Below are positions 643 through 59,903 of a stretch of DNA of 64,000 nucleotides, one piece after another. The stretch spans positions 247,669 through 311,668 of IMG/VR virus record IMGVR_UViG_3300017917_001342, one strand, 5' to 3'. The notes below the pieces were generated by a model that was given only the letters and a program-made list of their open reading frames with translations, was not told the origin of the DNA and ran no database searches. Made by a program: the position numbers and the translations under genes. How positions within the stretch are numbered: position 1 is the stretch's first letter; each line of letters opens with the position of its first letter. Origin of the DNA: a virus.

Positions 643-3564
643 ATGGTATACCAACTTATAACAGGACCAACTGGCTATACTGGCCCAACAGGTGTACCCG
701 GTACTGCTGCAAACACTGGAGCACAAGGTGATCCTGGTCCAACTGGCCCAACTGGTTTACGAGGTATAACTGGACCTACAGGTCCGTTAGGTGGTCCAAC
801 TGGTCCGCAAGGCGGTCAAGGTGTTAAAGGCGATACTGGACCGACCGGCCCGGCAGGCAATGATGGTGTAACAGGTCCGCAAGGTGAACCGGGCACTGCT
901 GCAAACACTGGACCTCAAGGCGATGCTGGACCAACTGGTCCTACAGGGTTGCGTGGTACTACAGGTCCTACTGGACCGTTAGGTGGTCCAACTGGTCCAC
1001 AAGGTACAAGAGGAGTTACAGGTCCTCAGGGATTAACTGGTGCAACTGGTGCAACTGGTAATATAGGTCCTACAGGGCCGTTAGGTGGTCCTACTGGTCC
1101 GCAAGGATTGCAGGGTGCAACTGGGCCTAGAGGATTTCAAGGATATACTGGGCCTACTGGATTAGGATATACAGGTGCAACTGGCTCAACCGGACCTATA
1201 GGATTAACGGGTCCTATTGGTAACACAGGTCCAACTGGTTATACAGGATTGCAAGGAACTACTGGCCCAACTGGCCCATTGGGCGGTCCTACAGGTCCAA
1301 CTGGTACCATTGGTGATATAGGTCCAACCGGCCCAACCGGTAATGCTGGTTATACAGGCCCTACTGGTAATATTGGCCCTACTGGTGCAGCAAGCACAGT
1401 AACAGGCCCTACTGGATATACAGGCGTTACTGGACCAGCTGGTGCTGATGGTATTACTGGTTCAACTGGCCCAACAGGTGCCGCAAGTACAGTAACAGGC
1501 CCAACTGGATATACAGGTGTTACAGGTCCAGCTGGTGCAGATAGTGTAATTACTGGTCCAACTGGTGCAAATGGAAATAACGGAGCAACAGGTCCTACAG
1601 GTGCAAATGGCACTAACGGAGCAACTGGACCGACTGGCGCAAACGGAATTAACGGATCAACTGGTCCTACAGGTGCAAATGGCACTAATGGAGCAACAGG
1701 CCCAACTGGTGCAAGCGGAGCAGATAGTACAGTAACAGGCCCTACTGGTGCTACAGGTGCAAATGGCACTAATGGAGCAACAGGCCCAACTGGTGCAAAT
1801 GGCACTAATGGAGCAACAGGCCCAACTGGTGCAAGCGGAGCAGATAGTACAGTAACAGGCCCTACTGGTGCTACAGGTGCAAATGGAACTAATGGAGCAA
1901 CGGGACCAACTGGTGCAGCAAGCACAGTAACAGGACCAACAGGCTATACAGGTGTTACAGGTCCAACAGGTACTAACAACCCATTTAACCAATCTCTTAA
2001 TACAAGTGATGCAGTTGAATTTGCAAATTTAATTGTTACAGGCAATGCACTTGTATTAACTAATCTTAATGTAAACGGCAATATTACTCTAAGCGGTAAT
2101 GTTACACAAATATCCGGTAACAGTGGTCAATTTTTTGGTGATGTAAATGGTATAGGTGCACTGTATGCAGGTATATCGGTTGGCTATAGCACTGTTGTAA
2201 ATCCTGTAATACAAAGTTCAGCTAGTATCGCAAATTATGTACAAAACAATTTCCAAAACATTAACAGTAGCAATATTGCATCAGCAGATTTAGTTGTTAC
2301 AGCGGATAATGGTACTGATACTACACATTATATAGATCTAGGTATTGCCAGTAGTGGATGGGATGGTACACAAGAAAACAGTATATCAACCGCGCTTTAT
2401 CCAGACGATGGTTATCTATATGTTCAAGGACATCCGGCATTTCCCGGAGAAGGTGGCAACCTTGTAATTGGTACCAGTATAACTGGAACGTCGTTAAAAA
2501 TCATTGTAGGTGGCTCTAATTCTACAGCAATAGTTGCGCATTTTAATGCTGCAAATACTGTTACTAATAGCACAACTACAGGTGCATTAGTTGTCAATGG
2601 CGGAGTCGGTGTATCTGGTAACATATATTCTAGTGGTAATGTTGTAGCTCAAACTGTTATTGCAGATAACGTAATAGTAAATGGCCAACGTATAATATCT
2701 AGTACCGGACCAACTGGACCGACAGGCGCAGCAAGTACAATTACAGGACCAACAGGTGCTACAGGCGCAAATGGCACTAACGGAGCAACAGGCTTTACTG
2801 GTGCTACAGGTGCAAATGGTATTGATGGAGCAACTGGACCTAACGGTATCAACGGAGCAACTGGTCCTACAGGCGCAAATGGTACTAACGGAGCAACAGG
2901 CCCTACAGGTGCTACAGGTGCAAATGGCACTAACGGAGCAACGGGACCTACTGGTGCTACAGGTGCAAATGGCATTAACGGAGCAACGGGACCCACAGGT
3001 GCTAGCGGCGCAGATAGTACAGTAACAGGCCCTACTGGTGCTACAGGTGCAAATGGTACTAACGGGGCAACAGGCCCTACAGGTGCTAGCGGCGCAGATA
3101 GTACAGTAACAGGTCCTACTGGTGCTACAGGTGCAAATGGAACTAACGGAGCAACTGGCCCTACTGGACCAACTGGTGCAAATGGTACTGACGGAGCAAC
3201 AGGTGCTACTGGTGCAAGTGGCCCAACTGGTACATTACAGCCAAGAGTGACTCAGCTAGCTGATGCTACATCTGTTACATTTAACATTGATACTACAGAT
3301 TTAGCATATCAAATTAATACTCAGGCTGTAGGAACGCTAACTATTAATGCACCAACTGGTACACCTGCGGACGGCCAAAAAATTGTATTTAGACTTAAAT
3401 CTACAAATATACAGACATTTTCATGGAATGGTATATTTGCAGGATCTATAGATTTACCGTTACCTACTGCATCAAGCGGCGGTTCTTTAACAGATTACTT
3501 GGGATTTGAATACAATGCAATCAACACCAAATGGGATATATTAGGTAAAAACTTCGGATTTTAA
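643..3564 (+). CDS. collagen-like triple-helix repeat fibre protein (973 aa) with two collagen-like blocks, a central Asn/Thr-rich beta-type domain and a C-terminal globular domain
   Basis: Long G-X-Y runs ([20 protein letters not shown]). Antisense ORFs inside it are artefacts of the repeat composition. Confidence 0.85.
1555..1970 (+). repeat. intragenic near-perfect tandem DNA repeats (~120-nt unit encoding [40 protein letters not shown]), collagen block 1
   Basis: Identical peptide units are visible twice in the translation, and the nucleotide strings at 1729-1848 and 1849-1968 are almost identical. Confidence 0.75.
2700..3235 (+). repeat. second collagen-like repeat block with 60-nt near-identical tandem units ([29 protein letters not shown])
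   Basis: Repeated DNA at 3001-3060 and 3061-3120. The block is also highly similar to block 1 of the same gene. Confidence 0.7.
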
Positions 3565-3763: not shown

Positions 3764-6700
3764 ATGGCAGATAGATATTGGGTAGGTGGTACTGGCGATT
3801 GGAGCGGAACTAATACTACAAACTGGTCAACTGCTAGCGGAGGTGCCGGAGGTGCATCTGTTCCGACTATCGCAGATAACGTATTTTTTGATCAAAATAG
3901 TGATCTAGCTGGCGCAGCATTTGTAGTAACTATAACTCAATCAGCATCTAGTTTAAATTTCACTGTTCAAAATTTAGATAGTGCTATGACATTAGCAGGG
4001 TCTAATAACTTAGAAATAGATGGTAACTTATCATTACCTGCTACTAATTTTACTGCTACTTACACTGGAAATTTAACATTTAACAGCAGTTCACCTAGAA
4101 CTGTTAATACTAATGGCGTCACACTAGCCTGTAATATTTTTATAAACATGTCACCTAGCACGTTGACTCTGCAGGCAGCACTTACGACTACCGGATCTGT
4201 TACGTTAAGTGTTGGAACTTTAATTCTAGGCGGGTTTGCGTTAACTTGCGCTAGTTTTCTTTCGTCTAACAGTGCCACTCGTTCTATAACGTTTGGTACT
4301 ACAGGGTCTATCAATTTATCAGGATCCGGTACAGTATGGAATACATCTACTACTACAGGGTTTACCTACACTGGCACAAGTAACGTAAGATTAACCAATA
4401 GCGGTTCTACTACAACTGCTATAACAACTGGTAATTTGAGTTCTTCGCAGGCTTTGAATTTTAATGTTACCGCAGGAACATATAGCTTAACACTAGGATC
4501 TACCGCAGTATTCAATAACTTGAATTTTACTGGATTTAGTGGTTCATTTGATATGGCTGCTATATCTGCTACTGTGTATGGAAATACAACTTTTTCAAAC
4601 ACGATGACTACATCATCTACAACTGGTGTACTAACTCTTAGTCCGAGTAGCGGTGGCAAAACTATTACATCGAATGGCAACAGTTTAGCGTTGGCATTAA
4701 CACTTAGTGGCACTGGAAGTACACTGCAATTAGTAGATAATTTAACAATAACTAAAGCGTTTACGTATTCTGGTAATACTTTAGATTTAAATTCAAATTC
4801 GCTGTCAGTGCAGAGTTTTGCGTCGCCTAGTGGTACTCGTGTTATTGCATTTGGTACAGGATCTATCACTACTACTGGTACTGGTACAGTATGGAACGTA
4901 AGCGGTACAATAGGCTTATCATATACTGGTATTTCAAATATAACAATATCAAATAACACTGCAACTGCTGTTACAATCACAAACACTGCAACCGCAGCTA
5001 GTGCAATGAACTTTAATATTGTTAATGGTACATATGCATTAACACTGACCAGTGGTAACAGCTATAGAAATTTGAACTTTACTGGTTTCAGTGGTACTTG
5101 GTCTCCAGCTGCTACTACACATACAATGTATGGTAATTTAACGATATCTGCTACTACACAAACTATTTCGCCTGCTACAGCAGGCAATGATACAATAACG
5201 TTTGCATCCACATCTGGCACAAATATTATAACAACCAACAATTGGGTTATAAATTGCGGTATAGCAATAAACGGTGCGGGAGGAACGGTGCAGTTTGCAG
5301 ATCTTTTTGGGCAGGGTCCCAGTTACAGTCTTAAACTAACAAACGGTACACTAGATATAAATTCTCAATCTACTAGTGCGGGAATTTTTACTATACTAAG
5401 TGGTACACATGCAATCTCAAATGGCATATTAACCTGTGCAAGTGTTACTCATACCAGTGGTGATCTAAGTATAGGTACAGGATACAATGTGGTATGTAAT
5501 GGCCTATATACATTTACTGCTGGCTCTATTACTATCAACGACGGCGTCAATCTATCCATTAACTCAATGAGTTCTTCTAATACCAATACTAGAAGTATTG
5601 CATTTGGTACTGGTTCAATTACAACTACTGGTACTGGTACAGTATGGAGTGTAACTGGAACAACCGGTTTATCATACACTGGTATTAGTAATATCATAAT
5701 CTCAAACAACACGGCAACATCGATTACTATTACCAATACTACATCCGCTGCAAGTGCTTTGAACTTTTATTTCATCAATGGCACTTACAATCTTCTCTTA
5801 ACAACTGGTAATGTCTATAATGATTTAAACTTTACTGGGTTTGCCGGCGCTGTGTTAATTGGAACTAATACTAATACATTATACGGCAATCTCATAGTTA
5901 GCAACACTGCTAGTGTCAGTGGATCTGCTGCTACTACAAATTTTGCATTTGCTGCAACTGGCGTAACCAGAACTATCACTACCGGCAATCGCACAGTTAA
6001 CTTTGGTGTTAGCTTTAACGGTGTTGGGAGTACATTCCAACTAGCTGACAATTTTATTCAATCTGTCGGCCAATATTTTCAAATAGTAAACGGCACAATT
6101 GATTTTAATAATGTAACTTATAGTTTAGGTACATTGGTTTTTGTAAATGGTACAAAATCTTACATTAACTATGGTGGTACACTAGCACCAGCGGCAATTA
6201 TACATACATCTGGCAATGTAACATTAGATACAGGTGCAGTAATAACAACTGCGGGATCGTATACATTTAGTGCTGGTACTATTACACTGAATAACGGTGT
6301 TAATTTATCTGTTGGATCGTTTATTTCTAGTAACAACAACACTCGTTTAATTGCATTTGGTACCAGTGCTATCATAGTTACTGGCACAGCTACAGTGTGG
6401 AACGTAACCGGTACTACTGGATTAAGTTATAATGGTACCAGTAACATAGTTGTATCTAACACAACAACAACTGGAATTACTATTAGTAACAACACCGGTA
6501 CCGCTGCAAATGCAATGAATTTCAATTTTATCAACGGCACATACGCATTAACATTTCCAAACACTGGAGGTAACTTTAATGATTTAAACTTTACTGGATT
6601 TGCTGGGACAGCTGATTTAGTTACAACAACTCATACAATATATGGTAACCTTATAGTTGGCTCTACTGCTACAATCACCGGCACTGGTGGTACAGGTAAT

Positions 6701-8971
6701 TTTATATTTTCTGCAACTAGCGGAACTAGAACTGTCACTACCAGTAATCGTACAGTTACCTTTGGTGTTAACTTTAACGGTCTTGGTGGCACATTTCAGT
6801 TAGCTGACAATTTTATTCAAGCAGCGGCGCAGTCATTTATAATAACCAACGGTACAGTTGATTTCAATAATGTAACTTATAGTTTAGGTGCATTGACATT
6901 TGTAACAGGTACAAAGTCTTATATTAACTACGGTGGCACACTGGCACCCGCATCAGTTCTACATACATCTGGCAATGTAATATTAGATACAGGTGCATTG
7001 ATAACAACTACGGGATCTTATACATTTACTAGTGGTAATATTATATTAAATAACGGTGTTAATTTATCTGTTGGATCGTTTATTTCTAATAACAATAACA
7101 CTCGTTTAATTGCGTTTGGTACTGGTTCGATTACTGTAAACGGCACCGGTACAATATGGAACGTGGCGGGTACTACTGGATTAAGTTATACTGGTACCAG
7201 TAACATTATTATATCTAACAATACAGCAACCGCAGCTACTATTAGTAACAACACCGGTACCGCTGCAAATGCTATGAATTTCAATTTTATCAATGGCACA
7301 TACACATTAACGCTTCCAGTTACTGGGGTCTTTAATAATTTAAACTTTACTGGGTTTGCCGGTATAGTTGCATTTTCAAATAGATTGCAAACATTATATG
7401 GTAATTTGATAATTGGACCTAATACTTCGTCTACTGGAACTAGCAGTGCTAATGGTGTAACATGGACTGCTACCAGTGGCACTAGAACTATTACTACTAA
7501 TGGAAGAACAATTAACTTTGGTATTACTATAAATGGTGTAGGACAAACTGTACGATTAACTGATGCACTTGTACAAGGTTCATCTCAGTATCTATATCTA
7601 ACCAATGGTACATTAGATCTAGCAGGTTATTCAAACAGCTTTGGTGTGTTAAGTCTTGCAACAGGCAATCGTTCATTTATAAACGGTAATATCAACTGTA
7701 CCACAGTGAATCATGACCGTGGTGACTTAACTGTAAATCCAGCAAATACTGTAATTGCGACCGGTGCATATAATCTTACAATAGGTAATCTTACCATCAA
7801 TAGCGATGCTACATTATCAGTTGGTTCAATGATATTCGCAGTTGGTGCGAAGTCTATTGCATTTAACACAGGTCGTATTAACTTAACAGGCACAGGTACT
7901 GTTTGGAATAGCAGTCTTCTTACTACTTTTAGTTACACAGGTACTAGCAATATTAGATTAACCAATAGCGGTTCTACAGCAACAACTATAACAACTGGTG
8001 CTATGACTGCTGCACAGGCATTGAATTACTATGTAACTGCCGGTACTTATACGCTAACACTAACTAATGGTAATGTTTATAGAGATTTAAATTTTACTGG
8101 GTTTGCCGGTACTGTTGCGTTATCTGCAACTACCCACACAATGTATGGCAATCTTACATTGGGACCTAGTACCAACACCAGTGCTACAGCCGGTACAAAT
8201 AATTTTGCATGGACATCAACTAGCGGTATCAGAACTATCACTACCAACAGTCGTACAGCTAATTTTGGTATAAACATCAACGGCGCAGGTCAAACTGTAC
8301 AATTAGCCGATAACTTTACACAGGGTGCAACACAGGTTACAACATTAACTGCCGGCACATTAGATATCAACGGTAAAACACTAACTGCTGGTGCAACATT
8401 TGCAGCACCGGGTGCAGTTGCAAAAAATATAACATTTAATAGTGGAACACTTATTTGTACTGCATCAACAACTACTGCATTTAATGCCAGTGGTTCAAAC
8501 TTAACTACCACGGCTGGTACCGGTAACGGTGTAATATCGATGTCGGGTGCAACTGCTAAAACATTTGTAGGCGGCGGTGTTAATTATGCAGCAACACTTA
8601 GCCAAGACGGTCTAGGCAATTTGACTATAACTGGTAACAATACATTTGCAAATATACGTAACACAGTACAACCAACTGCGGTATTGTTTACAGCTAATAG
8701 TACCAATACATTTAGTAATTTTTCTCTAAGCGGTACATCTAGCAATTTAGTAACTATTACTAGTCCTACTGCATTTACTCACACATTGAGTAAATCCGGA
8801 AGCGATGTTCAAGTTTCGTATTGTGCAATAAGTTATTCAAATGCCACAGGTGGTGCAACATGGCGGGCACCAGGTAACTTAGGTAACCTCAACAACAATT
8901 TCAATACTGGATGGAATTTTTCGCCCACTTCTACTACGGTAGTTCTCAGCAACATGATAGCATTCTTTTAA
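3764..8971 (+). CDS. 1735-aa repeat-rich adhesin / tail-fibre-like protein; Asn/Thr/Gly-rich beta-helix-type, N-terminus YWVGGTGDWSGTNTTNW resembles autotransporter-passenger-associated beta-strand repeats
   Basis: Single uninterrupted ORF. Six internal ~250-aa repeats, each beginning R/K-SIAFGTGSIT..GTGTVWN and ending NLNFTGF. Confidence 0.85.
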   Translation: MADRYWVGGTGDWSGTNTTNWSTASGGAGGASVPTIADNVFFDQNSDLAGAAFVVTITQSASSLNFTVQNLDSAMTLAGSNNLEIDGNLSLPATNFTATYTGNLTFNSSSPRTVNTNGVTLACNIFINMSPSTLTLQAALTTTGSVTLSVGTLILGGFALTCASFLSSNSATRSITFGTTGSINLSGSGTVWNTSTTTGFTYTGTSNVRLTNSGSTTTAITTGNLSSSQALNFNVTAGTYSLTLGSTAVFNNLNFTGFSGSFDMAAISATVYGNTTFSNTMTTSSTTGVLTLSPSSGGKTITSNGNSLALALTLSGTGSTLQLVDNLTITKAFTYSGNTLDLNSNSLSVQSFASPSGTRVIAFGTGSITTTGTGTVWNVSGTIGLSYTGISNITISNNTATAVTITNTATAASAMNFNIVNGTYALTLTSGNSYRNLNFTGFSGTWSPAATTHTMYGNLTISATTQTISPATAGNDTITFASTSGTNIITTNNWVINCGIAINGAGGTVQFADLFGQGPSYSLKLTNGTLDINSQSTSAGIFTILSGTHAISNGILTCASVTHTSGDLSIGTGYNVVCNGLYTFTAGSITINDGVNLSINSMSSSNTNTRSIAFGTGSITTTGTGTVWSVTGTTGLSYTGISNIIISNNTATSITITNTTSAASALNFYFINGTYNLLLTTGNVYNDLNFTGFAGAVLIGTNTNTLYGNLIVSNTASVSGSAATTNFAFAATGVTRTITTGNRTVNFGVSFNGVGSTFQLADNFIQSVGQYFQIVNGTIDFNNVTYSLGTLVFVNGTKSYINYGGTLAPAAIIHTSGNVTLDTGAVITTAGSYTFSAGTITLNNGVNLSVGSFISSNNNTRLIAFGTSAIIVTGTATVWNVTGTTGLSYNGTSNIVVSNTTTTGITISNNTGTAANAMNFNFINGTYALTFPNTGGNFNDLNFTGFAGTADLVTTTHTIYGNLIVGSTATITGTGGTGNFIFSATSGTRTVTTSNRTVTFGVNFNGLGGTFQLADNFIQAAAQSFIITNGTVDFNNVTYSLGALTFVTGTKSYINYGGTLAPASVLHTSGNVILDTGALITTTGSYTFTSGNIILNNGVNLSVGSFISNNNNTRLIAFGTGSITVNGTGTIWNVAGTTGLSYTGTSNIIISNNTATAATISNNTGTAANAMNFNFINGTYTLTLPVTGVFNNLNFTGFAGIVAFSNRLQTLYGNLIIGPNTSSTGTSSANGVTWTATSGTRTITTNGRTINFGITINGVGQTVRLTDALVQGSSQYLYLTNGTLDLAGYSNSFGVLSLATGNRSFINGNINCTTVNHDRGDLTVNPANTVIATGAYNLTIGNLTINSDATLSVGSMIFAVGAKSIAFNTGRINLTGTGTVWNSSLLTTFSYTGTSNIRLTNSGSTATTITTGAMTAAQALNYYVTAGTYTLTLTNGNVYRDLNFTGFAGTVALSATTHTMYGNLTLGPSTNTSATAGTNNFAWTSTSGIRTITTNSRTANFGININGAGQTVQLADNFTQGATQVTTLTAGTLDINGKTLTAGATFAAPGAVAKNITFNSGTLICTASTTTAFNASGSNLTTTAGTGNGVISMSGATAKTFVGGGVNYAATLSQDGLGNLTITGNNTFANIRNTVQPTAVLFTANSTNTFSNFSLSGTSSNLVTITSPTAFTHTLSKSGSDVQVSYCAISYSNATGGATWRAPGNLGNLNNNFNTGWNFSPTSTTVVLSNMIAFF
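4280..8600 (+). repeat. six tandem ~750-bp intragenic repeats (divergent copies) inside the adhesin gene
   Basis: Repeat starts by eye at about nt 4280, 4840, 5560, 6340, 7090 and 7850 (motif IAFGT..TGTGTVWN). Confidence 0.7.
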
Positions 8972-22073: not shown

Positions 22074-22469
22074 TTATGCTACCTTCAATTCAACGTCATC
22101 AATCATCAATTGCCGAACATAGTATTCAATCGGCTTCGGTGGCACTGCCATGTAGATCCTGGGATCGAACGTCATACCAACAGCGTCATACGCCGAAATC
22201 ACAAATTCAATCAACGCCAACGATGGTGCAGTGTTGCCCTTTTTGCAGTTACAAGGATGGCATGCGGGCATTGCGTTACACACAATCGAATAACCGTGCG
22301 ATTTAGGAAACACATGATCAGCAGTCATCACATTGAACGGCATTTCACATCCACACAAATAACAACGCTTGCCAATTTGGTTGTAGAGTGCTTTGATTAC
22401 CTGACGAGTGCATTGCTTTTTAGGGACACGCATTTTAGTTACCGTTGTGTGGTTGCTGTGTAAATGCAC
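22074..22469 (-). CDS. HNH homing-endonuclease-like protein (CYLCGC ... ADHVFPKSHGYS ... CHPCNCKKGN)
   Basis: The Cys pairs and His of an HNH/zinc-finger core are visible. True start probably MRVPKK. Confidence 0.7.
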   Translation of the reverse strand: MHLHSNHTTVTKMRVPKKQCTRQVIKALYNQIGKRCYLCGCEMPFNVMTADHVFPKSHGYSIVCNAMPACHPCNCKKGNTAPSLALIEFVISAYDAVGMTFDPRIYMAVPPKPIEYYVRQLMIDDVELKVA

Positions 22470-23243: not shown

Positions 23244-23601
23244 TGGTCTGTGATTCCGTATGCAAAAGATTCATATATGCGCGAAGACCTTCAAACTTTT
23301 CATTGAACCGTTGTTCTTTAGTTTTTAGATCAATACGTTGTCTTTTTAGTACGTCTTCTTCGTCGCGCATTTTTTGCCGATGCGCAAACCATTCGGTATT
23401 TTTCTCTCGATTCAACTCGTTACAGGTTTGATTTGCACGATTTAGTTTGTCTTTCAATTCGTTGATTCGTGCAACTGCTTCCTTAAGCAAGCTACATTCT
23501 TTCATCTTGCCACGTTCAACAATCCACATACCATCCTCGCCCATATAGGCAGAGACAATGCGTTCTTCAACTGATTTGACTTCTTTAGCCATATTAGACA
23601 T
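23233..23601 (-). CDS. hypothetical coiled-coil 122-aa protein
   Basis: ORF with heptad-rich, charged composition. Confidence 0.5.
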   Translation of the reverse strand: MSNMAKEVKSVEERIVSAYMGEDGMWIVERGKMKECSLLKEAVARINELKDKLNRANQTCNELNREKNTEWFAHRQKMRDEEDVLKRQRIDLKTKEQRFNEKFEGLRAYMNLLHTESQTNET

Positions 23602-23926
23602 CCAATGTAGTTAATATACGTTTATTATGAACTTCAGTTGCTTTGTTTTTCCATTTGGCAAGTTTAGGCAATGCAAGACGAATAAGGTCTTCTTCTGTTA
23701 GTTCGGGTGCATGTACACGGATAATATCAACTGCACAGGCAATTACATCAATTGCTTCGCCAACGATGCCATCCTTACCTGGCTGCTTATAGCTTTTGCC
23801 CTGTTCAATGATCACTTCCATTGCAAGTTCGCCTAGTTCTGTAACTGTATGGTTAAGAACGTCTTGAACTGTGCGATTGTTTTCAATTGCATCTGATGCA
23901 GAGAAGATTTCGCTAATCAGTGTCAT
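23594..23926 (-). CDS. MazG-like nucleotide pyrophosphohydrolase domain protein (TELGELAMEV ... EAIDVIACAVDI)
   Basis: E-x-x-E-L-x-E and E-x-x-D metal-binding pattern of all-alpha NTP pyrophosphatases. Confidence 0.5.
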   Translation of the reverse strand: MTLISEIFSASDAIENNRTVQDVLNHTVTELGELAMEVIIEQGKSYKQPGKDGIVGEAIDVIACAVDIIRVHAPELTEEDLIRLALPKLAKWKNKATEVHNKRILTTLDV

Positions 23927-24090
23927 GATAAAAACACTCCTGTATAACCCCAGCTGACTTCGGTTGATCGTCTAGCAATCTCAACCTGTCGCACTTCTCG
24001 CCAATCATCTTTGTAATCGCCGCCCTCGTAGAAAACTTCATACTCGGGCGGCATTTTTTGTAACTGTTCAATTAAGTCTTTAACATTCAT
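23923..24090 (-). CDS. unannotated 55-aa protein (MNVKDLIEQLQKMPPEYEVFYEGGDYKDDWREVRQVEIARRSTEVSWGYTGVFLS)
   Basis: Bridges the RNA ligase and MazG-like genes with ATGA overlaps at both ends. Confidence 0.5.
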   Translation of the reverse strand: MNVKDLIEQLQKMPPEYEVFYEGGDYKDDWREVRQVEIARRSTEVSWGYTGVFLS

Positions 24091-25157
24091 GCTTGCACTC
24101 CATTAACTTCGTGTTGACGACCTGCACCATACATCCAATGCTTTTGCGTTGCAACGTGATTTGCACGAACAAACTTTGCAACGCTGGTCTTGAAGTCTTT
24201 GTATGCAAATGCATCTGCAACTCGCACTACATAGCCTTCGTGAACATCACGATCAGTTTTTTCGTTGTACAGCGTCTTGATTGCTGCTTCATCCCAGATA
24301 CCATCATAGATAACCGGAACCGTCGGCATATCAAGCAGTGCAAACCATTCTACAGTTTCGTCCCAGCTAAGACATTCGTTGCGATCAGTCCAGATGCTAA
24401 ACCCAAGCAGGTAACCAGGCAAGTTATCATAGCGGATGCTATGCACAGCATAGAGGTTTTCTGCACATACACGCCAACCTTCTGGCAACTCATAGCTGCG
24501 TTGCATCCAAAAGTTCTTTGCCCAATCTCTAGTATAATGGCTACGACCGTCAACACTGCGAGCATGACAGTAGTCGCGATAACCACTGAAATTCTCACCG
24601 TCCATCTTGCGAGTAACAATCACACGGCGCCCCGCAAATACACCAGTGTCTTTCATAACACGGTCATCATCGGTTGCACCGGGGCTCCACGGCAAGTGAT
24701 AGGTACGAGGATACTTAACGTATTCTACAAACAGTGTGTCAAAGTCGGGATGATAACGAAGAATCTTTTGTACAGATTCGTCGTAGAACAACGGACCTTT
24801 GGTACGCTTGCCGTTGTCAAGAATCACATTGCCCCACTTATCGTAAACATGATCGTGGTACATGTCCTCAGGCAGCACGATTTTCTCGATCTTAGCAGCA
24901 ATACGAATGTCTTCGACACTCAGGGTAGTAACTTCTGCATTGCTGTGGCAACCCATTGGAAAACCATTGCTGTTACCATGATCGCACAGTGTTGCACCAT
25001 TGTCAAGATAATAGCCACCATCTGTCCAAAGACGGCGTTCGATAATGTGATGTGCATCAAGCCGAACACCATCGCGTGCTTCGTTACCGCAGATCACACA
25101 GCGATGGCCATCACGCTCAAAAACAGCGTTTCTAAATTGTTCGCGTGTGAGTAGCAT
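24087..25157 (-). CDS. RNA-ligase-like nucleotidyltransferase (motif I KMDGEN, motif IV EGYVVRV) fused to an N-terminal HNH/Zn-ribbon-like domain
   Basis: KxDG lysine-adenylylation motif. N-terminus HRCVICGNE ... DAHHIIER ... CDHGNSNGFPMGCH. Confidence 0.6.
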   Translation of the reverse strand: MLLTREQFRNAVFERDGHRCVICGNEARDGVRLDAHHIIERRLWTDGGYYLDNGATLCDHGNSNGFPMGCHSNAEVTTLSVEDIRIAAKIEKIVLPEDMYHDHVYDKWGNVILDNGKRTKGPLFYDESVQKILRYHPDFDTLFVEYVKYPRTYHLPWSPGATDDDRVMKDTGVFAGRRVIVTRKMDGENFSGYRDYCHARSVDGRSHYTRDWAKNFWMQRSYELPEGWRVCAENLYAVHSIRYDNLPGYLLGFSIWTDRNECLSWDETVEWFALLDMPTVPVIYDGIWDEAAIKTLYNEKTDRDVHEGYVVRVADAFAYKDFKTSVAKFVRANHVATQKHWMYGAGRQHEVNGVQA

Positions 25158-30861: not shown

Positions 30862-30884
30862 GTCTAACCAATAAATTCAATGCG

Positions 30885-35681: not shown

Positions 35682-36518
35682 TCAGACTTCTAACACTAGT
35701 TTCGGATCAAACGCACCCTGTGGACGTTCTTTTGGATAACCTCTGGGATTGCAAACTACTCTGGTATTGCCAATCATGTAATCGTGACTGTCGTGTACAT
35801 GTCCATGTATCCACAGCTTGAGATGATCATGACTGACCATTAACCAATCTAAGTTGCTGACAAATGCACCATTCATATGCAGTTGATGTGCATACTTTGG
35901 ATGAATACTACGAAAGCTCGGTGCATGATGACCTACAACAACAGTGTTGCGCTTGTCTAGTTCAAGTTGTGTTTTTAGCCATTCAACAGTTTTACGATGT
36001 GTATCAGCAGTTACACTCGGTGGTAGTTTATAATACAAATCACCTACATTGTAGGTAATTGATTTATAATCATTCATCATATCCTTAACAACCATTTCAG
36101 TCATAGGATCATAGTTGTTGAGGCTGCTCCAAACTGTTGCACCAAGAAACACGGTATCGTTGATAACCATCTTGTCTTGTTCTAGAAGATGGATGTTACC
36201 GTGCCGAGCAGCTTCTGTACGAAGTATGTCAGCAGTGCGATCCCAACGTCCGCTGTAGTGTTCATGGTTGCCCATCACATAGAGCACAGTGTCAAACTCT
36301 TGACTTACCTGATGAAAAAAGCTTCGATATCTGATAGCATCGTCTGCATACCAGCCCTTTTGAATATAAGTGTAATCAATACCTGCGCTGGGATTTCTAT
36401 GCATGTGTTCTGCAACACAGATGTCGCCTGCAAGTACCAGTACATCTGCACCTGCATTTTCTACTCGTATGTCTTCTGCAAATTCCAAATGCAGGTCACT
36501 GATCAACTGTATTTTCAT
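35682..36518 (-). CDS. calcineurin-like metallophosphoesterase
   Basis: Motifs DLHLE, GDxxD-like (LAGDIC), GNHE, HHAP and GHVH are visible. Confidence 0.75.
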   Translation of the reverse strand: MKIQLISDLHLEFAEDIRVENAGADVLVLAGDICVAEHMHRNPSAGIDYTYIQKGWYADDAIRYRSFFHQVSQEFDTVLYVMGNHEHYSGRWDRTADILRTEAARHGNIHLLEQDKMVINDTVFLGATVWSSLNNYDPMTEMVVKDMMNDYKSITYNVGDLYYKLPPSVTADTHRKTVEWLKTQLELDKRNTVVVGHHAPSFRSIHPKYAHQLHMNGAFVSNLDWLMVSHDHLKLWIHGHVHDSHDYMIGNTRVVCNPRGYPKERPQGAFDPKLVLEV

Positions 36519-36573
36519 TTTTAACTCACTGTGTTAAGACATTAACTTAGCATCATACTGTGTTGATGTAAAG

Positions 36574-37026
36574 TTATCTAGCAGACTTTTTAGATTCCTC
36601 AGAATCGTGTACACGTTTGCGCAGATCGCTGCTGCTGAATCTATGATCTCGCTTGTTGAAATACAGTTGTATTCCGCGACGTCTGCAAATATCTTTGCCA
36701 GTGAAATCTTTGTCTTTGTATTCCACACCTAATATACGAACGTCTATGCGATACATTTCCAATATATCTTCAAGATCTTTTTCTGTAGCATAGGGTATGA
36801 TCTCGTCAACATACTTTACGCCTTTTAACTGTGTGTATCGTTCAACTATGGTTTGTACAGGTGTGTTTTTGTCTTTGCGATCAGCACTGGGATCCGTTTG
36901 CAATGCACAGATAAGATAGTCACACTGTTCTTTAGCTTCTCTTAGCATTTGAACATGTCCGGCATGCAATAGATCAAACGCAGATGCAGTAAATCCAATC
37001 TTTACAGTTTTTGTTATATCGTTCAT
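36574..37026 (-). CDS. cytidylyltransferase-like nucleotidyltransferase (HxGH motif FDLLHAGH)
   Basis: (T/H)xGH signature of the cytidylyltransferase superfamily (TagD / RfaE domain II-like). Confidence 0.65.
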   Translation of the reverse strand: MNDITKTVKIGFTASAFDLLHAGHVQMLREAKEQCDYLICALQTDPSADRKDKNTPVQTIVERYTQLKGVKYVDEIIPYATEKDLEDILEMYRIDVRILGVEYKDKDFTGKDICRRRGIQLYFNKRDHRFSSSDLRKRVHDSEESKKSAR

Positions 37027-48200: not shown

Positions 48201-49493
48201 TTACCAAATAGTTTCGCCGTTTCTTTTTACAACAGCAGTGTAGGTTCCGTCAGTATTCCTAGACACATATAAGCGTTGTTTGATAAAACCGATTACATCG
48301 CCAACACTGTATTGATTTGATCTGTCTTGTACGTCTTTTAGACTTTGTTTGTACACTTCTTCTATATTGTGTATGTCTAAAACACTGCCATCTTCTTCAT
48401 TGGCTTCTTTAGCATATTCTCTAACTTCGTCCGGAGTTAGATCTATAGCATCTTCTATTGTGTCAAATATACCACGTGCTTCGTCGTTGTAAGATAGATA
48501 ACTGGGTGCATCATCTGTTATTTCATCGTCGTCGTTGACATAGCCTTCGCTACGCAACCACTCGTAATAGTAGTCGTCATTGGTTTCCCAATCGCTTAGC
48601 ATTTCGTATACATAATCCATCAACAGTTCTTTTATTTTTTTAGTCAATGGTACTAGTATTTCGTCGGGAGCAAATTCCAACATGCGATCGAAGTATTCTG
48701 GGTGTCGTTCTTTAAAAAAGTCAAACAGTTCAGGAAAACGTGTTCTAAGCAGCCAGGTCAATCCCACTGCATCGTCGTCTTCATTCATAAACTGTTCACT
48801 TGGAAAGTGTAGTTGATACTTTTCACCATCATGTTCAGGGTTCTTAGGTATCAATATGTACAGCGGTCCTTGACGGTTATAACGTTCAAAGTAATTGGTA
48901 CCATGAGTAGCAGCAGTACACCAGCGAGTACCTCGGCCATATCTACATGCTGCTGGTTCATCTAGTGGATGTACAATTGCAACTTCTGAGCTATCGTAGA
49001 TTTTTTCTGCTCGACCCTTGTCGGCATCATCTTCAACGTCTTCGTATTCGTCCATTCTATCTAGAAATTCGTCAAATGTCTTGTAGCGATTAATGTCATT
49101 GAATGGTGCAGCTATACGCTTTTTGCGATTGAGTTTGTCAAACTTGGCAAGATATGTTGCAACAGTACTGACCATATCTTCTATCTGCGTGATTCTTGTA
49201 TTTTGTGGTGATGCAAATAGTCTAGCCATCCACTGAGTATACTTTTTATTTGGCGACGGATCAGCAGCTTCAAACTGTTCCATAGCTCGTTCTGCAAAAT
49301 CATTGAGGCTGTCAGGATCTGATGCTGCATCGTGATATAATGGGCTATTTTTAAGTTTATCGGCTAATTGGTTCAAAGGTGTCGAATATAAACCAACTGC
49401 ATCACGTAGTGCAGCTAATCCTAAATTTGGACCTATCGCAGCAATAGCACGAGCGCGATCATATTCTAGTAATAGTAAAGTTTGTATTTTCAT
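48201..49493 (-). CDS. hypothetical 430-aa protein (motif YGRGTRWCTAATHGTNYF), translationally coupled to the upstream ART-like gene
   Basis: ATGA overlap at 49490-49493. Confidence 0.55.
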   Translation of the reverse strand: MKIQTLLLLEYDRARAIAAIGPNLGLAALRDAVGLYSTPLNQLADKLKNSPLYHDAASDPDSLNDFAERAMEQFEAADPSPNKKYTQWMARLFASPQNTRITQIEDMVSTVATYLAKFDKLNRKKRIAAPFNDINRYKTFDEFLDRMDEYEDVEDDADKGRAEKIYDSSEVAIVHPLDEPAACRYGRGTRWCTAATHGTNYFERYNRQGPLYILIPKNPEHDGEKYQLHFPSEQFMNEDDDAVGLTWLLRTRFPELFDFFKERHPEYFDRMLEFAPDEILVPLTKKIKELLMDYVYEMLSDWETNDDYYYEWLRSEGYVNDDDEITDDAPSYLSYNDEARGIFDTIEDAIDLTPDEVREYAKEANEEDGSVLDIHNIEEVYKQSLKDVQDRSNQYSVGDVIGFIKQRLYVSRNTDGTYTAVVKRNGETIW

Positions 49494-50650
49494 CGTTCGA
49501 GCTCATCTGCTACTATTAGGTTGCCTTTTCTGACAAATTTTCTCAAACCATCTGCTTGTATAAGTTCGTGAGTGCGTTCGTCAGTTGGATAGACTTTACA
49601 TACTTCTAATTCATTTTCCCAGGTGTACTCTGGATTGGGATCGCCTGCTTGCCAATCGTCAAATCCCTGTTTACCATCGGCTAACGCAGTCTCAGGAGTC
49701 TGGCCGGTACCCCAAGCATAATCTTCACTGGGATTGCCAAAGAAATACCACTCGGCTTTGGTTTGTGGTATTGGGCCAGCTTTTTCTTTTGGACGATTCA
49801 TAGTAGTTTGATCGTAATAGACTTTACCGTTTGATCTATTTTCGATTCGTATAATACGAGTTTTACCTTTGAATCCTATGTTGCGTGTAACTCTAACTGT
49901 GTCAGATTCAATAGGTTTAACTGTGGCAAGTACATTGTACATTGCGGTTTCGAACGCAGGGGTATGTCTAATGTCATTTAATATGCGAAAACTTACATAA
50001 TTTCTAAATTTACTAGACGATTGCTTCTTATTGACAATATGTCGTAAAAATACAGTTGCGAGTACTCTTATTTCAAGTAGCGCATTGCGATTCAATTTGA
50101 TTTTTGTAGGTCTGGCATTGTATTGGCGCAGGTTTATTTTAGTTGGATTTAAAAATGCCTGTTCAACATGCGTTAATGCGTTTTGAAAATTTTGTTTGTT
50201 TGAATAGTATGCCGAAGCGTCTTCTACAGATTCAATTGCTGCGGGTGTTGAATCTAATATAGACTCAGTTAATATTGCCATAATATCATCTTCGTCTATA
50301 GTACCTGAACTTATCACATACTGTAGAGTTATTAAAACAGGATCACCGCCATGTGCAGTAGATGCGTTGTCTGCACCTTCTTCTGCTTTGTCTAAGTCAG
50401 AAGTTAGATACACACCGCCTTTAAATGTATCATATCCACCAGTATCTACATTAGTCTCTCTACTGTATGTGGATTTTGGTGGATTAGCTAATAATCCGTG
50501 CTTTAGTATACTAGGTACTAGTGCGCTGCTAGTACCATGATACATGGTTTGAACACGTTGTATTTTTCGTTCGGTGAGGATGTCGTTGATTTGCATCCAA
50601 TATTTATAAGCAAGATAGCTTGAATAACAGTTGTTCTTCTTGACTGGCAA
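49490..50650 (-). CDS. protein with N-terminal H-G-T ADP-ribosyltransferase / Tpt1(KptA)-like motif (MYHGTSSALVPSILKHGL ... GGVYLTSD)
   Basis: YHGT(S/A)..L..I...GL then V-Y/H-L-S/T resembles the NAD-binding core of KptA/Tpt1 and H-Y-E-class ARTs. Confidence 0.45.
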   Translation of the reverse strand: MPVKKNNCYSSYLAYKYWMQINDILTERKIQRVQTMYHGTSSALVPSILKHGLLANPPKSTYSRETNVDTGGYDTFKGGVYLTSDLDKAEEGADNASTAHGGDPVLITLQYVISSGTIDEDDIMAILTESILDSTPAAIESVEDASAYYSNKQNFQNALTHVEQAFLNPTKINLRQYNARPTKIKLNRNALLEIRVLATVFLRHIVNKKQSSSKFRNYVSFRILNDIRHTPAFETAMYNVLATVKPIESDTVRVTRNIGFKGKTRIIRIENRSNGKVYYDQTTMNRPKEKAGPIPQTKAEWYFFGNPSEDYAWGTGQTPETALADGKQGFDDWQAGDPNPEYTWENELEVCKVYPTDERTHELIQADGLRKFVRKGNLIVADELER

Positions 50651-52567: not shown

Positions 52568-52644
52568 TGGTAGGGGATGCAGGACTCGAACCAGCAACCT
52601 ACGGATTATGAGTCCGGCGCTCTAACCAATTGAGCTAATCCCCC
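52568..52644 (-). tRNA. tRNA with CAU anticodon (Met/Ile2-type; overall closest to elongator tRNA-Ile2(LAU) architecture), CCA encoded
   Basis: Cloverleaf folded by hand: 7-bp acceptor (G1-U72 wobble), D-arm AGCTCAATTGGTTAGAGC, anticodon loop CUCAUAA, T-arm GCTGG-TTCGAGT-CCTGC (one U-U mismatch), discriminator A plus CCA. Confidence 0.8.
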
Positions 52645-58440: not shown

Positions 58441-58737
58441 TCATCTATTATTTTTTAGATGTTGTTCGTACCATTCTTCTAGTCTAGGTACAATACTATG
58501 ACTATCCATAGTTAATTTAAACAAAAATGCGTCGTCTGCAGATTGAAAACAGATTGTAACAGGCTGATTTGCTACAACACGGCCTTCTTGGTTTTTTACA
58601 AAACTCAGTTTGAATTTCGCAGTACCGTCGCGGTTAGTACCGTATTCGGCTTTAATCCACTCTATTAAACGACCACCATGGCCAGTCCATATTTCAGTTG
58701 GTATACTAACATGGTAAGGTGTGGGGAGATACGTCAC
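58441..58737 (-). CDS. W-tail family-like protein (IEWIKAEYGTN ... DDAFLFKLTMD + 17-aa extension)
   Basis: Motif 1 and an FKLT core are present, with a C-terminal extension in place of the W end. Confidence 0.5.
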   Translation of the reverse strand: MTYLPTPYHVSIPTEIWTGHGGRLIEWIKAEYGTNRDGTAKFKLSFVKNQEGRVVANQPVTICFQSADDAFLFKLTMDSHSIVPRLEEWYEQHLKNNR

Positions 58738-59903
58738 AGTACCACCCCACTCAGCAGTTCTTCTTTGGTAGCAACATAGCCGCTATCTGCCCAGGCATTT
58801 TTCAGCCGGTTCAGCATTGCACCCAGGTCTTTACCCGGCTTCATACCCATAGCAATCAGATCCTTACCTGTAACAGGAAACGGATCAAATTCCCAATGAA
58901 CCAGAGCATTCTGACTCCATGCATCGCGCTCTTCGATTGCAGCCAGTTCAGCAACCCATTTGCGTGGTGCACCATCAACAGCAATCAGACGACGCAGGTC
59001 ATCGTTACGCTTGTAATGCTTGCACAGCCACAGTGCATGATCACGTTCTTCGCTGCTCCATTTCAGGTCAACGGCAATACGTGCAACGTCATCGTAGTCC
59101 CAAAATTGCCATGCTGCCATAACAACCTCGGGATCTTGCGAAAATTGCAAAATTGCTTTTGCAAAAGCTGGCATGTGATCAGCAAACACTGCAACATTGG
59201 TCGAAATGTAGCTGCCCATACCAATTTCGTGCATTGCAGCAAACAGCGCAGAACCACGAGGATGAACAACGATCTTTTTCAGTTCGCTCCAAACACGCTC
59301 TCTGCTGATCTGATTCAGACCTTTGTAGTTGTCCAGGATAGCCTGCCAAGCAGCGGGATCAATGCGGCCCGGCTTGCCGAACCGTGCTTGAAAACGGAAC
59401 CAGCGCAGGATACGCAGGTAGTCTTCTTTAACACGAGTATCAGCATCACCAACAAAGCGAACCAGTTGGTCCTGCAGATCCTGTTGACCATTGAACGGAT
59501 CAATCAGCACACCATCGAACGTCATTGCCATAGCATTGAACGTAAAGTCCCTACGGCTCAGGTCTTCGATCCAATCGCGAGTGTAAGCAACTTTTGCATG
59601 ACGACCATCGTGATCGGTTTCAGTACGCAAGCTGGTGATTTCATAACCAACATGGTCAATTACCACAGTGATAGTACCGTGTTGCAGACCAGTTTCTACA
59701 TACCGGTAACCAAATGCACGGTAGATTTCCAGTTGTTCTGTGGGATCAGCATCAGTGCAGAAGTCCATATCCTTGGGTTCAACACCTGCAACAATGTCAC
59801 GAACTGCACCACCAACTAGACGGATATCAAACCCACGGCTTTGAAATGCAGCACGCAGCGTTTTCAGTTCTTCTGTGAAGTATTTGTCGAACACAGTTGA
59901 CAC
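58734..59903 (-). CDS. cca: tRNA nucleotidyltransferase (CCA-adding enzyme), class II
   Basis: Head-domain motif LVGGAVRD ... KDMDF, then RDFTFNAMA. Confidence 0.8.
   Translation of the reverse strand: MSTVFDKYFTEELKTLRAAFQSRGFDIRLVGGAVRDIVAGVEPKDMDFCTDADPTEQLEIYRAFGYRYVETGLQHGTITVVIDHVGYEITSLRTETDHDGRHAKVAYTRDWIEDLSRRDFTFNAMAMTFDGVLIDPFNGQQDLQDQLVRFVGDADTRVKEDYLRILRWFRFQARFGKPGRIDPAAWQAILDNYKGLNQISRERVWSELKKIVVHPRGSALFAAMHEIGMGSYISTNVAVFADHMPAFAKAILQFSQDPEVVMAAWQFWDYDDVARIAVDLKWSSEERDHALWLCKHYKRNDDLRRLIAVDGAPRKWVAELAAIEERDAWSQNALVHWEFDPFPVTGKDLIAMGMKPGKDLGAMLNRLKNAWADSGYVATKEELLSGVVL

What the first reader, a model, noticed from the sequence alone, without database searches (positions are those of the whole stretch)
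24087..25157. HNH/Zn-ribbon::RNA-ligase fusion inside a coupled chain with a MazG-like NTPase; possible RNA-repair or anti-anticodon-nuclease set
The 356-aa protein joins an N-terminal Cys/His HNH-like module (HRCVICGNE...DAHHIIER...CDHGNSNGFPMGCH) to a nucleotidyltransferase with ligase motif I KMDGEN and motif IV EGYVVR (Rnl2-like). It is translationally coupled to a 55-aa ORF and a MazG-like pyrophosphohydrolase, with an HNH homing-endonuclease gene 1.6 kb away. Elsewhere the window encodes a CCA-adding enzyme, a calcineurin-like phosphoesterase and a Tpt1-like H-G-T protein. Together these could constitute a tRNA-repair toolkit, analogous in logic to T4 Pnkp+Rnl1 but built from different parts. 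The HNH-ligase fusion itself is an unusual architecture.
Basis: partly seen in the sequence, partly recalled or inferred. Interest (0 to 1): 0.62.

Follow-up and report, generated by a model that had tools for sequence, protein, structure and literature searches.

The report
HNH nuclease–RNA ligase fusion, known family
This jumbo-phage gene really does join an HNH nuclease to an RNA ligase, but the fusion is a widespread family already noted in the literature, never tested biochemically, and the proposed multi-gene "tRNA repair toolkit" around it is not conserved.

Summary
The 356-aa ORF (24087..25157, minus strand) exists as described. Residues 1-75 form a McrA/IscB-like HNH nuclease fold, residues 76-145 are a conserved linker with no structural match, and residues 146-356 are a minimal ATP-dependent RNA-ligase nucleotidyltransferase domain (PF09414). 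The ATGA overlaps with the 55-aa ORF and the MazG-like gene are real.

The architecture is not unusual. It is phrog_24030, RefSeq calls it "RNA ligase" in several jumbo phages, and Iyer et al. 2021 (citing Burroughs & Aravind 2016) already describe the fusion. It also occurs in bacterial chromosomes and a haloarchaeal virus.

Both active sites are essentially invariant in about 245 homologues. The HNH-linker module occurs only with this ligase. Where the gene is split, the two halves stay adjacent. Some homologues carry an intein inside ligase motif I.

No neighbour is conserved: the MazG-like gene follows the ligase in 2 of 155 loci. The window has no PNK, RtcB, 2H or Tpt1, and the "Tpt1-like" protein has only a sub-threshold PARP-like hit.

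Best reading: a self-contained enzyme that seals 3'-OH/5'-PO4 RNA breaks, with a dedicated and probably active HNH partner of unknown substrate. It is a new member of a known, uncharacterised kind.

The parts
24087..25157 (-). HNH-linker-RNA ligase fusion gene, 356 aa
   Evidence: ORF. phrog_24030 'RNA ligase' covers aa2-344 at E=2e-134. AF2 pLDDT 91, pTM 0.86. Best homologues are 87% identical metagenomic proteins.
24933..25157 (-). HNH (beta-beta-alpha-metal) nuclease module, aa1-75. Zn ligands C20, C23, C58, C70. Catalytic and metal residues D34, H36, H37, N53, H71 (H36-H37 at 25047-25052).
24723..24932 (-). Conserved linker, aa76-145. Invariant E75, D106-K107-W108-G109, R118, G121, D126, S128.
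24087..24722 (-). Minimal ATP-dependent RNA-ligase nucleotidyltransferase domain, aa146-356. Motif I K184-MDGEN (24591-24608), motif III E233-N234, motif IV E307-GYVVR (24222-24239), motif V K328-x-V-R331. No C-terminal accessory domain.
   Evidence: PF09414 95.5 bits. phrog_34045 covers aa146-347. Foldseek hits to Rnl3 8uce/2vug, Rnl5 5cot/6vt*, T4 Rnl2 2hvq/1s68. Motif residues 93-99% conserved. Inteins are inserted inside motif I in homologues.
23923..24090 (-). 55-aa ORF, translationally coupled (ATGA) to the ligase. Function unknown.
   Evidence: Junction sequence. Weak hit to phrog_5861, E=8.5e-6. Not found in any of 155 related loci.
23594..23926 (-). MazG-like NTP pyrophosphohydrolase, 110 aa, ATGA-coupled to the 55-aa ORF. 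A local neighbour only.
   Evidence: phrog_1247 E=3e-19, no Pfam hit. Found downstream of the ligase only in L070 and L113.
22074..22469 (-). Free-standing HNH_5 endonuclease gene, 1.6 kb downstream. No evidence of a link to the ligase.
   Evidence: PF14279 E=4e-8. A distant homologue occurs in 1 of 155 loci, 7 kb from that ligase.
58734..59903 (-). CCA-adding enzyme / poly(A) polymerase family gene, 34 kb from the ligase
   Evidence: PF01743 E=2e-30 and PF12627.
35682..36518 (-). Calcineurin-like metallophosphoesterase, next to an NMNAT-like gene (36574..37026), 10.5 kb from the ligase
   Evidence: PF00149 E=3e-7. phrog_1649 E=2e-54. PF01467 E=8e-15.
49490..50650 (-). Not Tpt1; at most a PARP-like ADP-ribosyltransferase fold.
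   Evidence: Only a sub-threshold PF00644 hit, 19.5 bits against a cut-off of 26.7. PHROG families of unknown function. HGT motif located.

Best explanation
The gene encodes a member of the HNH-RNA ligase family, a self-contained two-activity enzyme.

C-terminal domain (inferred from conserved motifs and fold, by analogy to T4 Rnl2 and NgrRnl): it should run the standard three-step ATP-dependent ligase reaction. Lys184 is adenylylated, AMP is transferred to a 5'-phosphate, and a 3'-OH attacks to form the phosphodiester. It therefore seals breaks with 3'-OH/5'-PO4 ends. Metal-dependent host nucleases leave exactly that end chemistry, so no kinase or phosphatase partner is required.

N-terminal module: the HNH-plus-linker is a dedicated partner of this ligase and takes the place of the accessory domains of other RNA ligases (the Rnl2 C-domain, the Rnl5 N-domain). 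Its catalytic residues are invariant, so it is most likely an active Mg/Mn-dependent nuclease. Its products (5'-PO4/3'-OH) are what the ligase consumes. I therefore favour a cooperative role, in which it binds the broken nucleic acid and/or trims it to ligatable ends, over an unrelated role.

Biological role (inferred): repair of phage or host RNA, with tRNA the prime candidate, that is cut during phage-host or phage-phage conflict.

The MazG-like gene, the 55-aa ORF, the CCA-adding enzyme and the Metallophos gene are not a conserved system with it.
For: Domain identity.

Both active sites under strong purifying selection: HNH residues C20, C23, D34, H36, H37, N53, C58, H71 and ligase residues K184, D186, G187, E233, E307, G308, K328 are each kept in 240-248 of 251 sequences, down to 38% identity.

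Dedicated partnership:
- A search with the N-module alone finds only PF01844 and PF09414 as co-domains.
- In the exhaustive search, 9 of the 10 long hits scanned carry PF09414, with or without an intein, and no other catalytic domain; the tenth (P0249) shows only a BACON hit.
- In three lineages where the gene is split, the N-module gene is followed directly by the ligase-only gene. L153 is a clean split at residues 140/143.
- pTM 0.86 for the two-domain model suggests a fixed mutual orientation.

Self-sufficiency: no conserved neighbour in 126 non-redundant loci, and no PNK, RtcB, 2H or Tpt1 in the window.

RNA-repair theme: occasional neighbours are cREC, HAD_SAK_2, HAD_PNKP, AAA_33, Thg1, RtcB, DUF2828/TROVE and a CCA-adding enzyme.

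Literature: the fusion is assigned to RNA repair in jumbo phages (PMC7824862). A tRNA nick made by a metal-dependent nuclease has 5'-P/3'-OH ends and is resealed by T4 Rnl1 and Rnl2 without healing (PMC12445682).

Inteins inside motif I mark it as a functional core site.
Against: - No member of the family has been assayed, and none has a solved structure. Ligase activity, RNA versus DNA preference and HNH activity are all inferred.
- The nearest structural relatives of the HNH module are DNA nucleases (McrA, TagI, IscB, Cap5). That fits the published alternative, in which the HNH attacks DNA independently.
- Trimming broken ends would lose nucleotides and would not restore a tRNA anticodon loop.
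- Ligase-only relatives at 45-50% identity exist in XacN1, Atu_ph07 and Phosso with no recognisable N-module beside them. The ligase domain can therefore work without the HNH.
- Two of the three split loci lack the KYPRTYHLPWS segment and may be decaying genes.
- I could not inspect model coordinates or PAE, so the geometry between the two active sites is unknown.
Confidence: 0.55

Rival explanations
1. Two independent activities on one chain (the published suggestion). The HNH domain is a DNase used against host or superinfecting-phage DNA, while the ligase separately repairs cleaved RNA. The fusion only ensures co-expression.
Against: The N-module is never found with another catalytic partner, and never alone except directly upstream of the ligase half. 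The architecture is fixed from phages to bacteria to a haloarchaeal virus. The linker is as conserved as the catalytic domains, and the model is rigid. Many copies sit in ordinary bacterial chromosomal contexts, where an unregulated DNase weapon would be harmful.
Confidence: 0.22
2. The HNH module is a catalytically silent zinc-stabilised nucleic-acid-binding domain. It serves only as the substrate clamp of a minimal ligase, like the Rnl2 C-domain or the Rnl5 N-domain.
For: It sits N-terminal to the nucleotidyltransferase domain, as in Rnl5, and the ligase has no other accessory domain. The stand-alone nucleotidyltransferase domains of known RNA ligases need an extra domain for full nick sealing (established for T4 Rnl2; my own knowledge).
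Against: The general-base and metal-ligand residues (D34, H36, H37, N53, H71) are invariant across about 245 sequences. Degenerate HNH domains normally lose these.
Confidence: 0.13
3. The fusion is one component of a multi-gene tRNA-repair or anti-anticodon-nuclease toolkit with the MazG-like NTPase, CCA-adding enzyme, calcineurin-like phosphoesterase and a Tpt1-like protein, analogous to T4 Pnkp+Rnl1.
For: Genuine translational coupling to the MazG-like gene. A CCA-adding enzyme and a Metallophos gene are present in the window. RNA-repair genes are loosely enriched near homologues. A MazG-like gene recurs downstream in L070 and L113, and a NUDIX gene lies directly upstream in L003.
Against: The MazG-like gene is found in 2 of 155 loci and the other chain genes in none. 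The other 'members' lie 10.5-34 kb away. There is no Tpt1, no polynucleotide kinase and no 2',3'-phosphoesterase of the known healing types in the window. No neighbour family recurs in more than 7 of 126 loci.
Confidence: 0.07
4. A selfish mobile cassette. The HNH is a homing endonuclease that spreads the ligase gene, which would explain the variable genomic positions.
For: The genomic context differs in almost every lineage. Free-standing HNH homing genes are common in this phage.
Against: Homing endonucleases fused in frame to their cargo with an invariant rigid linker are not the norm. The fusion is stably present in bacterial chromosomes. Some copies are themselves invaded by inteins that carry their own LAGLIDADG homing nuclease.
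Confidence: 0.03

Closest known systems
HNH-Rnl2-family fusions noted by Burroughs & Aravind 2016 (NAR 44:8525) and Iyer et al. 2021 (PMC7824862); phrog_24030; RefSeq 'RNA ligase' of Caulobacter phages CcrBL9/CcrSC, Acinetobacter phage ME3 and Halogranum virus HGTV-1
   Same: Same full-length architecture. 47-57% identity to the bacteriophage proteins and 31% to HGTV-1. Full-length match to the PHROG profile.
   Different: Nothing architectural. This copy is simply a new sequence (best public match 87%) in an undescribed T4-like jumbo phage.
Rnl5 ligases (Naegleria gruberi NgrRnl, Deinococcus radiodurans DraRnl)
   Same: Accessory domain N-terminal and nucleotidyltransferase domain C-terminal, with no C-terminal domain. 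Same Pfam family. Best (marginal) PDB sequence-profile hit, around motif I. Structural match to the nucleotidyltransferase domain.
   Different: The N-domain is an HNH nuclease plus a novel linker, not the OB-like N-domain of Rnl5. Identity is 13-18%.
T4 RNA ligase 2 (Rnl2)
   Same: PF09414 nucleotidyltransferase domain with motifs I, III, IV and V. Phage origin. Expected 3'-OH/5'-PO4 sealing chemistry.
   Different: Rnl2 has its nucleotidyltransferase domain at the N-terminus and a helical C-terminal domain needed for nick recognition. Here the protein ends 28 residues after motif V, and the extra module is N-terminal.
T4 Pnkp + Rnl1 tRNA restriction-repair pathway
   Same: Phage-encoded RNA break repair as a counter to host nucleases is the likely biological theme.
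   Different: There is no kinase or phosphatase healing enzyme in the window. The ligase belongs to a different family. The partner module is a nuclease rather than an end-healing kinase/phosphatase.
McrA / TagI / IscB / Cap5 HNH nucleases
   Same: The fold of residues 1-~80, the zinc-binding cysteines and the H-N-H catalytic residues.
   Different: Those are DNA endonucleases with DNA-targeting or sensor domains. Here the HNH is joined only to an RNA ligase.

Membership tests
Covalent nucleotidyltransferase (ligase/capping enzyme) superfamily | Motif I KxDG with the adenylylated lysine | tested here: met
   K184-M-D-G-E-N. K184 is kept in 241 of 251 sequences and G187 in 245 of 251.
Covalent nucleotidyltransferase (ligase/capping enzyme) superfamily | Motifs III, IV and V in order, and the nucleotidyltransferase fold | tested here: met
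   E233-N234, E307-G-Y-V-V-R312, K328-x-V-R331 are conserved. Foldseek probability 1.00 to Rnl3, Rnl5 and Rnl2.
Covalent nucleotidyltransferase (ligase/capping enzyme) superfamily | Formation of a covalent enzyme-AMP intermediate | not testable with these tools
   Needs an in vitro adenylylation assay.
Pfam PF09414 RNA_ligase | Score above the gathering threshold over the full profile | tested here: met
   95.5 bits against 27, profile positions 2-171 of 171.
Rnl2 sensu stricto (T4 Rnl2 type) | N-terminal nucleotidyltransferase domain followed by the Rnl2-specific C-terminal domain | tested here: not met
   The nucleotidyltransferase domain is C-terminal (aa146-356). Only 28 residues follow motif V.
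Rnl5 (DraRnl/NgrRnl type) | C-terminal nucleotidyltransferase domain with an N-terminal accessory domain | tested here: met
   Domain order from Pfam and the model.
Rnl5 (DraRnl/NgrRnl type) | The N-terminal domain is the Rnl5 OB-like fold | tested here: not met
HNH / beta-beta-alpha-metal nucleases (PF01844) | His-Asn-His catalytic residues on a beta-beta-alpha core with a Cys4/Cys3His zinc site | tested here: met
HNH / beta-beta-alpha-metal nucleases (PF01844) | Metal-dependent nuclease activity | not testable with these tools
   Needs a biochemical assay.
phrog_24030 (phage HNH-RNA ligase) | Full-length profile match | tested here: met
   E=2.2e-134, aa2-344 against profile positions 3-333 of 342.
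T4-type heal-and-seal RNA repair system (Pnkp + ligase) | A 5'-kinase and a 3'-phosphatase or cyclic phosphodiesterase encoded with the ligase | tested here: not met
   No AAA_33/PNK, HAD_PNKP, 2H or RtcB in any of about 80 window ORFs scanned. The rest of the genome lies outside the window.
Tpt1/KptA 2'-phosphotransferase (claimed neighbour) | Match to PF01885 | tested here: not met
   No hit in any ORF. The HGT protein 49490..50650 has only a sub-threshold PARP hit.
MazG NTP pyrophosphohydrolase (neighbour 23594..23926) | Profile match to the MazG family | tested here: inconclusive
   phrog_1247 'MazG-like pyrophosphatase' E=3e-19, but no Pfam or NCBIfam hit.

The most novel reading that the evidence does not exclude
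The HNH-linker module is the end-processing half of a new kind of one-polypeptide 'cut/trim-and-seal' enzyme. The nuclease converts non-ligatable or damaged termini into 5'-PO4/3'-OH ends, for example by clipping a terminal nucleotide that carries a 2',3'-cyclic phosphate, or by opening a cyclic phosphodiester. It hands them directly to the adjacent ligase site. That would be a nuclease-based alternative to kinase/phosphatase healing, and in effect a sixth architectural class of ATP-dependent RNA ligase, used by jumbo phages, bacteria and archaeal viruses.
Probability: 0.2. Interest if true: 0.65.

Novelty: new member of a known kind. Interest (0 to 1): 0.3.

Why it matters
The family is widespread: jumbo phages, bacteria from many phyla and a haloarchaeal virus. 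It is strongly conserved, and no member has been studied biochemically or structurally. Nobody has explained why an RNA ligase is always welded to an apparently active nuclease. Showing that the two sites cooperate would add a new healing logic to RNA repair, and could yield a useful cut-and-join enzyme. As a genome-scan finding, though, this gene is an ordinary member of a catalogued family, and the surrounding 'toolkit' is not a system.

Tried and rejected
- DNA-level search of phage records found nothing. Sequence searches of the PDB, with the single protein and with the family profile, gave nothing significant.
- The window's exact protein is not on record in the assembly collection.
- The sigma-70 promoter and terminator scan of 21.5-26.5 kb was at chance level: 12 found against 12.2 expected.
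- I looked for a conserved operon partner three ways: BLASTP clustering of 3029 ORFs from 149 loci, bulk Pfam scans of 147 viral and 146 cellular neighbours, and tblastn of each local neighbour against all loci. There is none.
- I checked whether the genes upstream of the ligase-only versions in Phosso and XacN1 are hidden N-modules. Their translations show no CxxC or HNH motifs.
- I checked whether the window's 1735-aa ORF is homologous to the equal-length gene beside the SCTP-2 ligase. There is no similarity, so the equal length is a coincidence.
- I considered the 353-aa antisense ORF (24093..25154, + strand) as a possible second gene. I rejected this because it is the codon-aligned antisense frame of a gene that avoids TTA/CTA/TCA codons.
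- Burroughs & Aravind 2016 could not be read: it is not held.

Full report
OBSERVATION

- Pfam places an RNA_ligase domain (PF09414) at aa178-330 with E=5e-27, and an HNH domain (PF01844) at aa20-61 just above its gathering score.
- PHROGs gives a full-length match to phrog_24030 'RNA ligase' (aa2-344, E=2e-134), plus a dozen HNH families for the N-terminus.
- The gene overlaps are as described. The ligase stop and the start of the 55-aa ORF share ATGA, the 55-aa ORF and the MazG-like gene share ATGA, and the next gene overlaps by 8 nt.
- The MazG-like assignment rests on phrog_1247 (E=3e-19) only. Pfam and NCBIfam give nothing.
- The HNH_5 endonuclease gene 1.6 kb away, the CCA-adding enzyme (58734..59903) and the Metallophos gene (35682..36518) are real.
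- The 'Tpt1-like H-G-T protein' is not. The only candidate (49490..50650) has a sub-threshold PARP hit, and no ORF matches Tpt1.

GENOMIC SETTING

The window comes from a T4-like jumbo phage. It encodes Hsp70, ClpX, ClpS, HSP20, an HSP90-like ATPase, cyclophilin, topoisomerase II subunits, a Gp23-like fragment and one tRNA-Met. The topoisomerase large subunit is 54-56% identical to those of Sinorhizobium phage Phosso and Agrobacterium phage Atu_ph07. No phage record is similar at the DNA level.

ANATOMY

An AlphaFold2 model built on 43 homologues is confident (pLDDT 91, pTM 0.86).
- The C-terminal half matches the nucleotidyltransferase domains of Rnl3 (8uce, 2vug), Rnl5 (NgrRnl 5cot/6vt*) and T4 Rnl2 (2hvq, 1s68) about equally well, at 13-18% identity.
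- No solved structure belongs to this clade by sequence.
- The protein ends 28 residues after motif V, so the Rnl2 C-domain is absent.
- Only about 65-90 residues align, so the conserved linker (about aa76-145) has no known structural counterpart.

IS IT UNUSUAL?

No.
- The protein has 5710 homologues at E<=0.001. All of the 120 best listed are full-length proteins of about 340-390 aa, up to 87% identical.
- Full-length copies at 47-57% identity occur in Salicola phage SCTP-2, the Caulobacter CcrBL9/CcrSC group, Ralstonia RsoM2USA and Acinetobacter ME3. Halogranum virus HGTV-1 has one at 31%. RefSeq annotates several as 'RNA ligase'.
- The fusion is also in 61 cellular genome loci, including complete chromosomes of Leptospira and Imbroritus, isolates of Devosia, Variovorax, Achromobacter and Paucibacter, and a Thermoplasmatota MAG. 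It is in 189 IMG/VR contigs.
- Iyer et al. [quoted passage not shown] They suggest the HNH attacks DNA while the ligase repairs RNA (PMC7824862).
- I found no experimental study of the family.

WHAT THE COMPARATIVE DATA ADD

1. Both catalytic centres are under strong selection. Across 251 sequences, the HNH residues (C20, C23, D34, H36, H37, N53, C58, H71) and the ligase residues (K184, D186, G187, E233, E307, G308, K328) are each kept in 240-248. Six of the 251 were antisense mis-calls. The linker is as conserved as the catalytic domains.
2. The N-module is exclusive to this ligase. Searches with residues 1-145 recover only proteins that carry PF01844 and/or PF09414. The exhaustive search finds 305 cluster representatives at E<=1e-10. 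Nine of the ten long ones scanned carry PF09414, with or without an intein, and no other catalytic domain; the tenth (P0249) shows only a BACON hit.
3. In three lineages the gene is split, and the N-module gene is followed directly by the ligase-only gene. L153 is a clean split at residues 140/143. The other two lack the KYPRTYHLPWS segment and may be decaying.
4. There is no conserved neighbour.
   - The best BLASTP cluster occurs in 7 of 126 non-redundant loci.
   - Among 147 viral neighbours, the top Pfam families occur three times each: AAA_33, NUDIX and DNA ligase. Single or double occurrences include HAD_SAK_2, HAD_PNKP, Thg1, cREC and NADAR.
   - The 146 cellular neighbours are mostly housekeeping, with a few AAA_33, HD, RtcB and Metallophos.
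   - The MazG-like gene recurs downstream only in L070 and L113. The 55-aa ORF and the other chain genes recur nowhere.
5. Ligase-only relatives at 45-50% identity exist in XacN1, Atu_ph07 and Phosso, with no N-module beside them.

MECHANISM

Shown by sequence and fold: an intact ligase nucleotidyltransferase domain and an intact HNH active site, rigidly linked.

Inferred:
- ATP-dependent sealing of 3'-OH/5'-PO4 breaks through a Lys184-AMP intermediate.
- A role in RNA repair during conflict. This ligase chemistry needs no healing enzymes when the break comes from a metal-dependent nuclease. A tRNA nick made by the Toprim nuclease OLD carries 5'-P/3'-OH ends and is resealed by T4 Rnl1 and Rnl2 directly (PMC12445682). 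That fits the absence of PNK, phosphatase, 2H and RtcB in the window.

The role of the HNH is the open point. Exclusivity, adjacency after fission, the conserved linker and the high pTM all favour a dedicated, cooperative partner that binds the substrate and/or generates 5'-P/3'-OH ends. The DNase-like structural neighbours, and the existence of ligase-only relatives, keep the published 'independent DNase' model alive. A silent binding domain is unlikely because the catalytic residues are invariant.

COMPARISON AND MEMBERSHIP

The protein is a member of PF09414 and phrog_24030.
- It is not an Rnl2 in the strict sense: no C-domain, and the nucleotidyltransferase domain is C-terminal.
- It shares domain order with Rnl5 but not the Rnl5 N-domain.
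- It is not part of a T4-like Pnkp+ligase system within this window.

VERDICT

It is wrong on rarity, on Tpt1, and on a multi-gene toolkit. This is a new member of a known but biochemically unexplored family. Interest is modest (0.3). The interesting residue is the unexplained, obligate pairing of a nuclease with a ligase.

Noticed in passing
Homologues P0246, P0256, P0257, P0338 (about 700-740 aa) and P0274 (530 aa); corresponds to window residue 188/189, nt ~24591-24596: Several family members carry an intein inserted exactly inside ligase motif I (KMDGE|C...HN|C-T-S). Four have a LAGLIDADG homing endonuclease and one is a mini-intein. This is classic active-site placement, and inteins have apparently not been noted for this ligase family.
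   Followed up: yes
window 24093..25154 (+), antisense to the ligase gene; also 20186-20917, 20954-21640, 22074-22469, 27574-28062, 30137-30964, 32432-33358, 58734-59903: A 353-aa ORF runs antisense across the whole ligase gene, because the gene has 1 TTA/CTA/TCA codon in 356 against about 12 expected from the window mean of 3.5%. About eight genes share this trait, together with higher GC (0.44-0.50) and GC3 (0.41-0.53) than the rest (GC3 0.18-0.43). This looks like a distinct compositional class, possibly more recently acquired genes.
   Followed up: partly
window 58734..59903 (-): The CCA-adding enzyme gene uses CTG for 28 of its 31 leucine codons, unlike most genes in the window. That suggests horizontal acquisition from a CTG-biased (for example gammaproteobacterial) source.
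   Followed up: partly
L060 8001-9682, L061 8001-9559, L033 5757-7271: In Lewinellaceae/Saprospirales MAGs the full fusion gene is followed directly by a second, ligase-only paralogue (query aa148-341). In L033 two extra copies of the first ~43 codons lie upstream of the gene.
   Followed up: partly
L002 8408-10670 (JGI contig, ligase 82% identical to the window's): The CCA-adding enzyme appears split into a PolyA_pol head gene (178 aa) and a PolyA_pol_RNAbd+HD gene (253 aa), separated by a 282-aa gene on the opposite strand. A cREC_REC (cyclic-phosphate processing) gene sits directly upstream of the ligase there.
   Followed up: no
window 35682..37026 (-): The Metallophos phosphoesterase is adjacent to an NMNAT-like cytidylyltransferase-family gene. 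NAD-metabolism genes (NMNAT/ADPR pyrophosphatase, NADAR, NUDIX) also recur loosely near the ligase in other phages, for example SCTP-2 gene 103.
   Followed up: no
window 37101-38954, 41975-42451, 42545-43798, 11129-13318 and others: An unusually rich chaperone and proteostasis set for a phage: Hsp70/DnaK, HSP20, ClpX, ClpS, an HSP90-like ATPase and cyclophilin.
   Followed up: no
window, exact ORFs not located (among the 45 ORFs of alignment A5): PP-loop ATPase (PF01171), PTPS/QueD-like (PF01242) and two nitroreductase-family proteins are present. Together they hint at a 7-deazaguanine or tRNA/DNA base-modification pathway.
   Followed up: no
window 643..3564 (+) and 3764..8971 (+): A 973-aa protein with eight collagen triple-helix repeat stretches, followed by a 1735-aa protein with no family match. 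Both have very low GC3 (0.18-0.24) and lie on the opposite strand to most genes. They are probably fibre or structural proteins.
   Followed up: no
window 52568..52644 (-): A single tRNA-Met (CAT) gene, the only tRNA in 64 kb.
   Followed up: no
L149 2763-8335 (Logan contig, 65.8 kb): A dense cluster around a split HNH/ligase pair: a 334-aa HNH protein, Gad2, His_Phos_1, YqeY and a second, different PF09414 ligase (363 aa, PHA02142-like).
   Followed up: no
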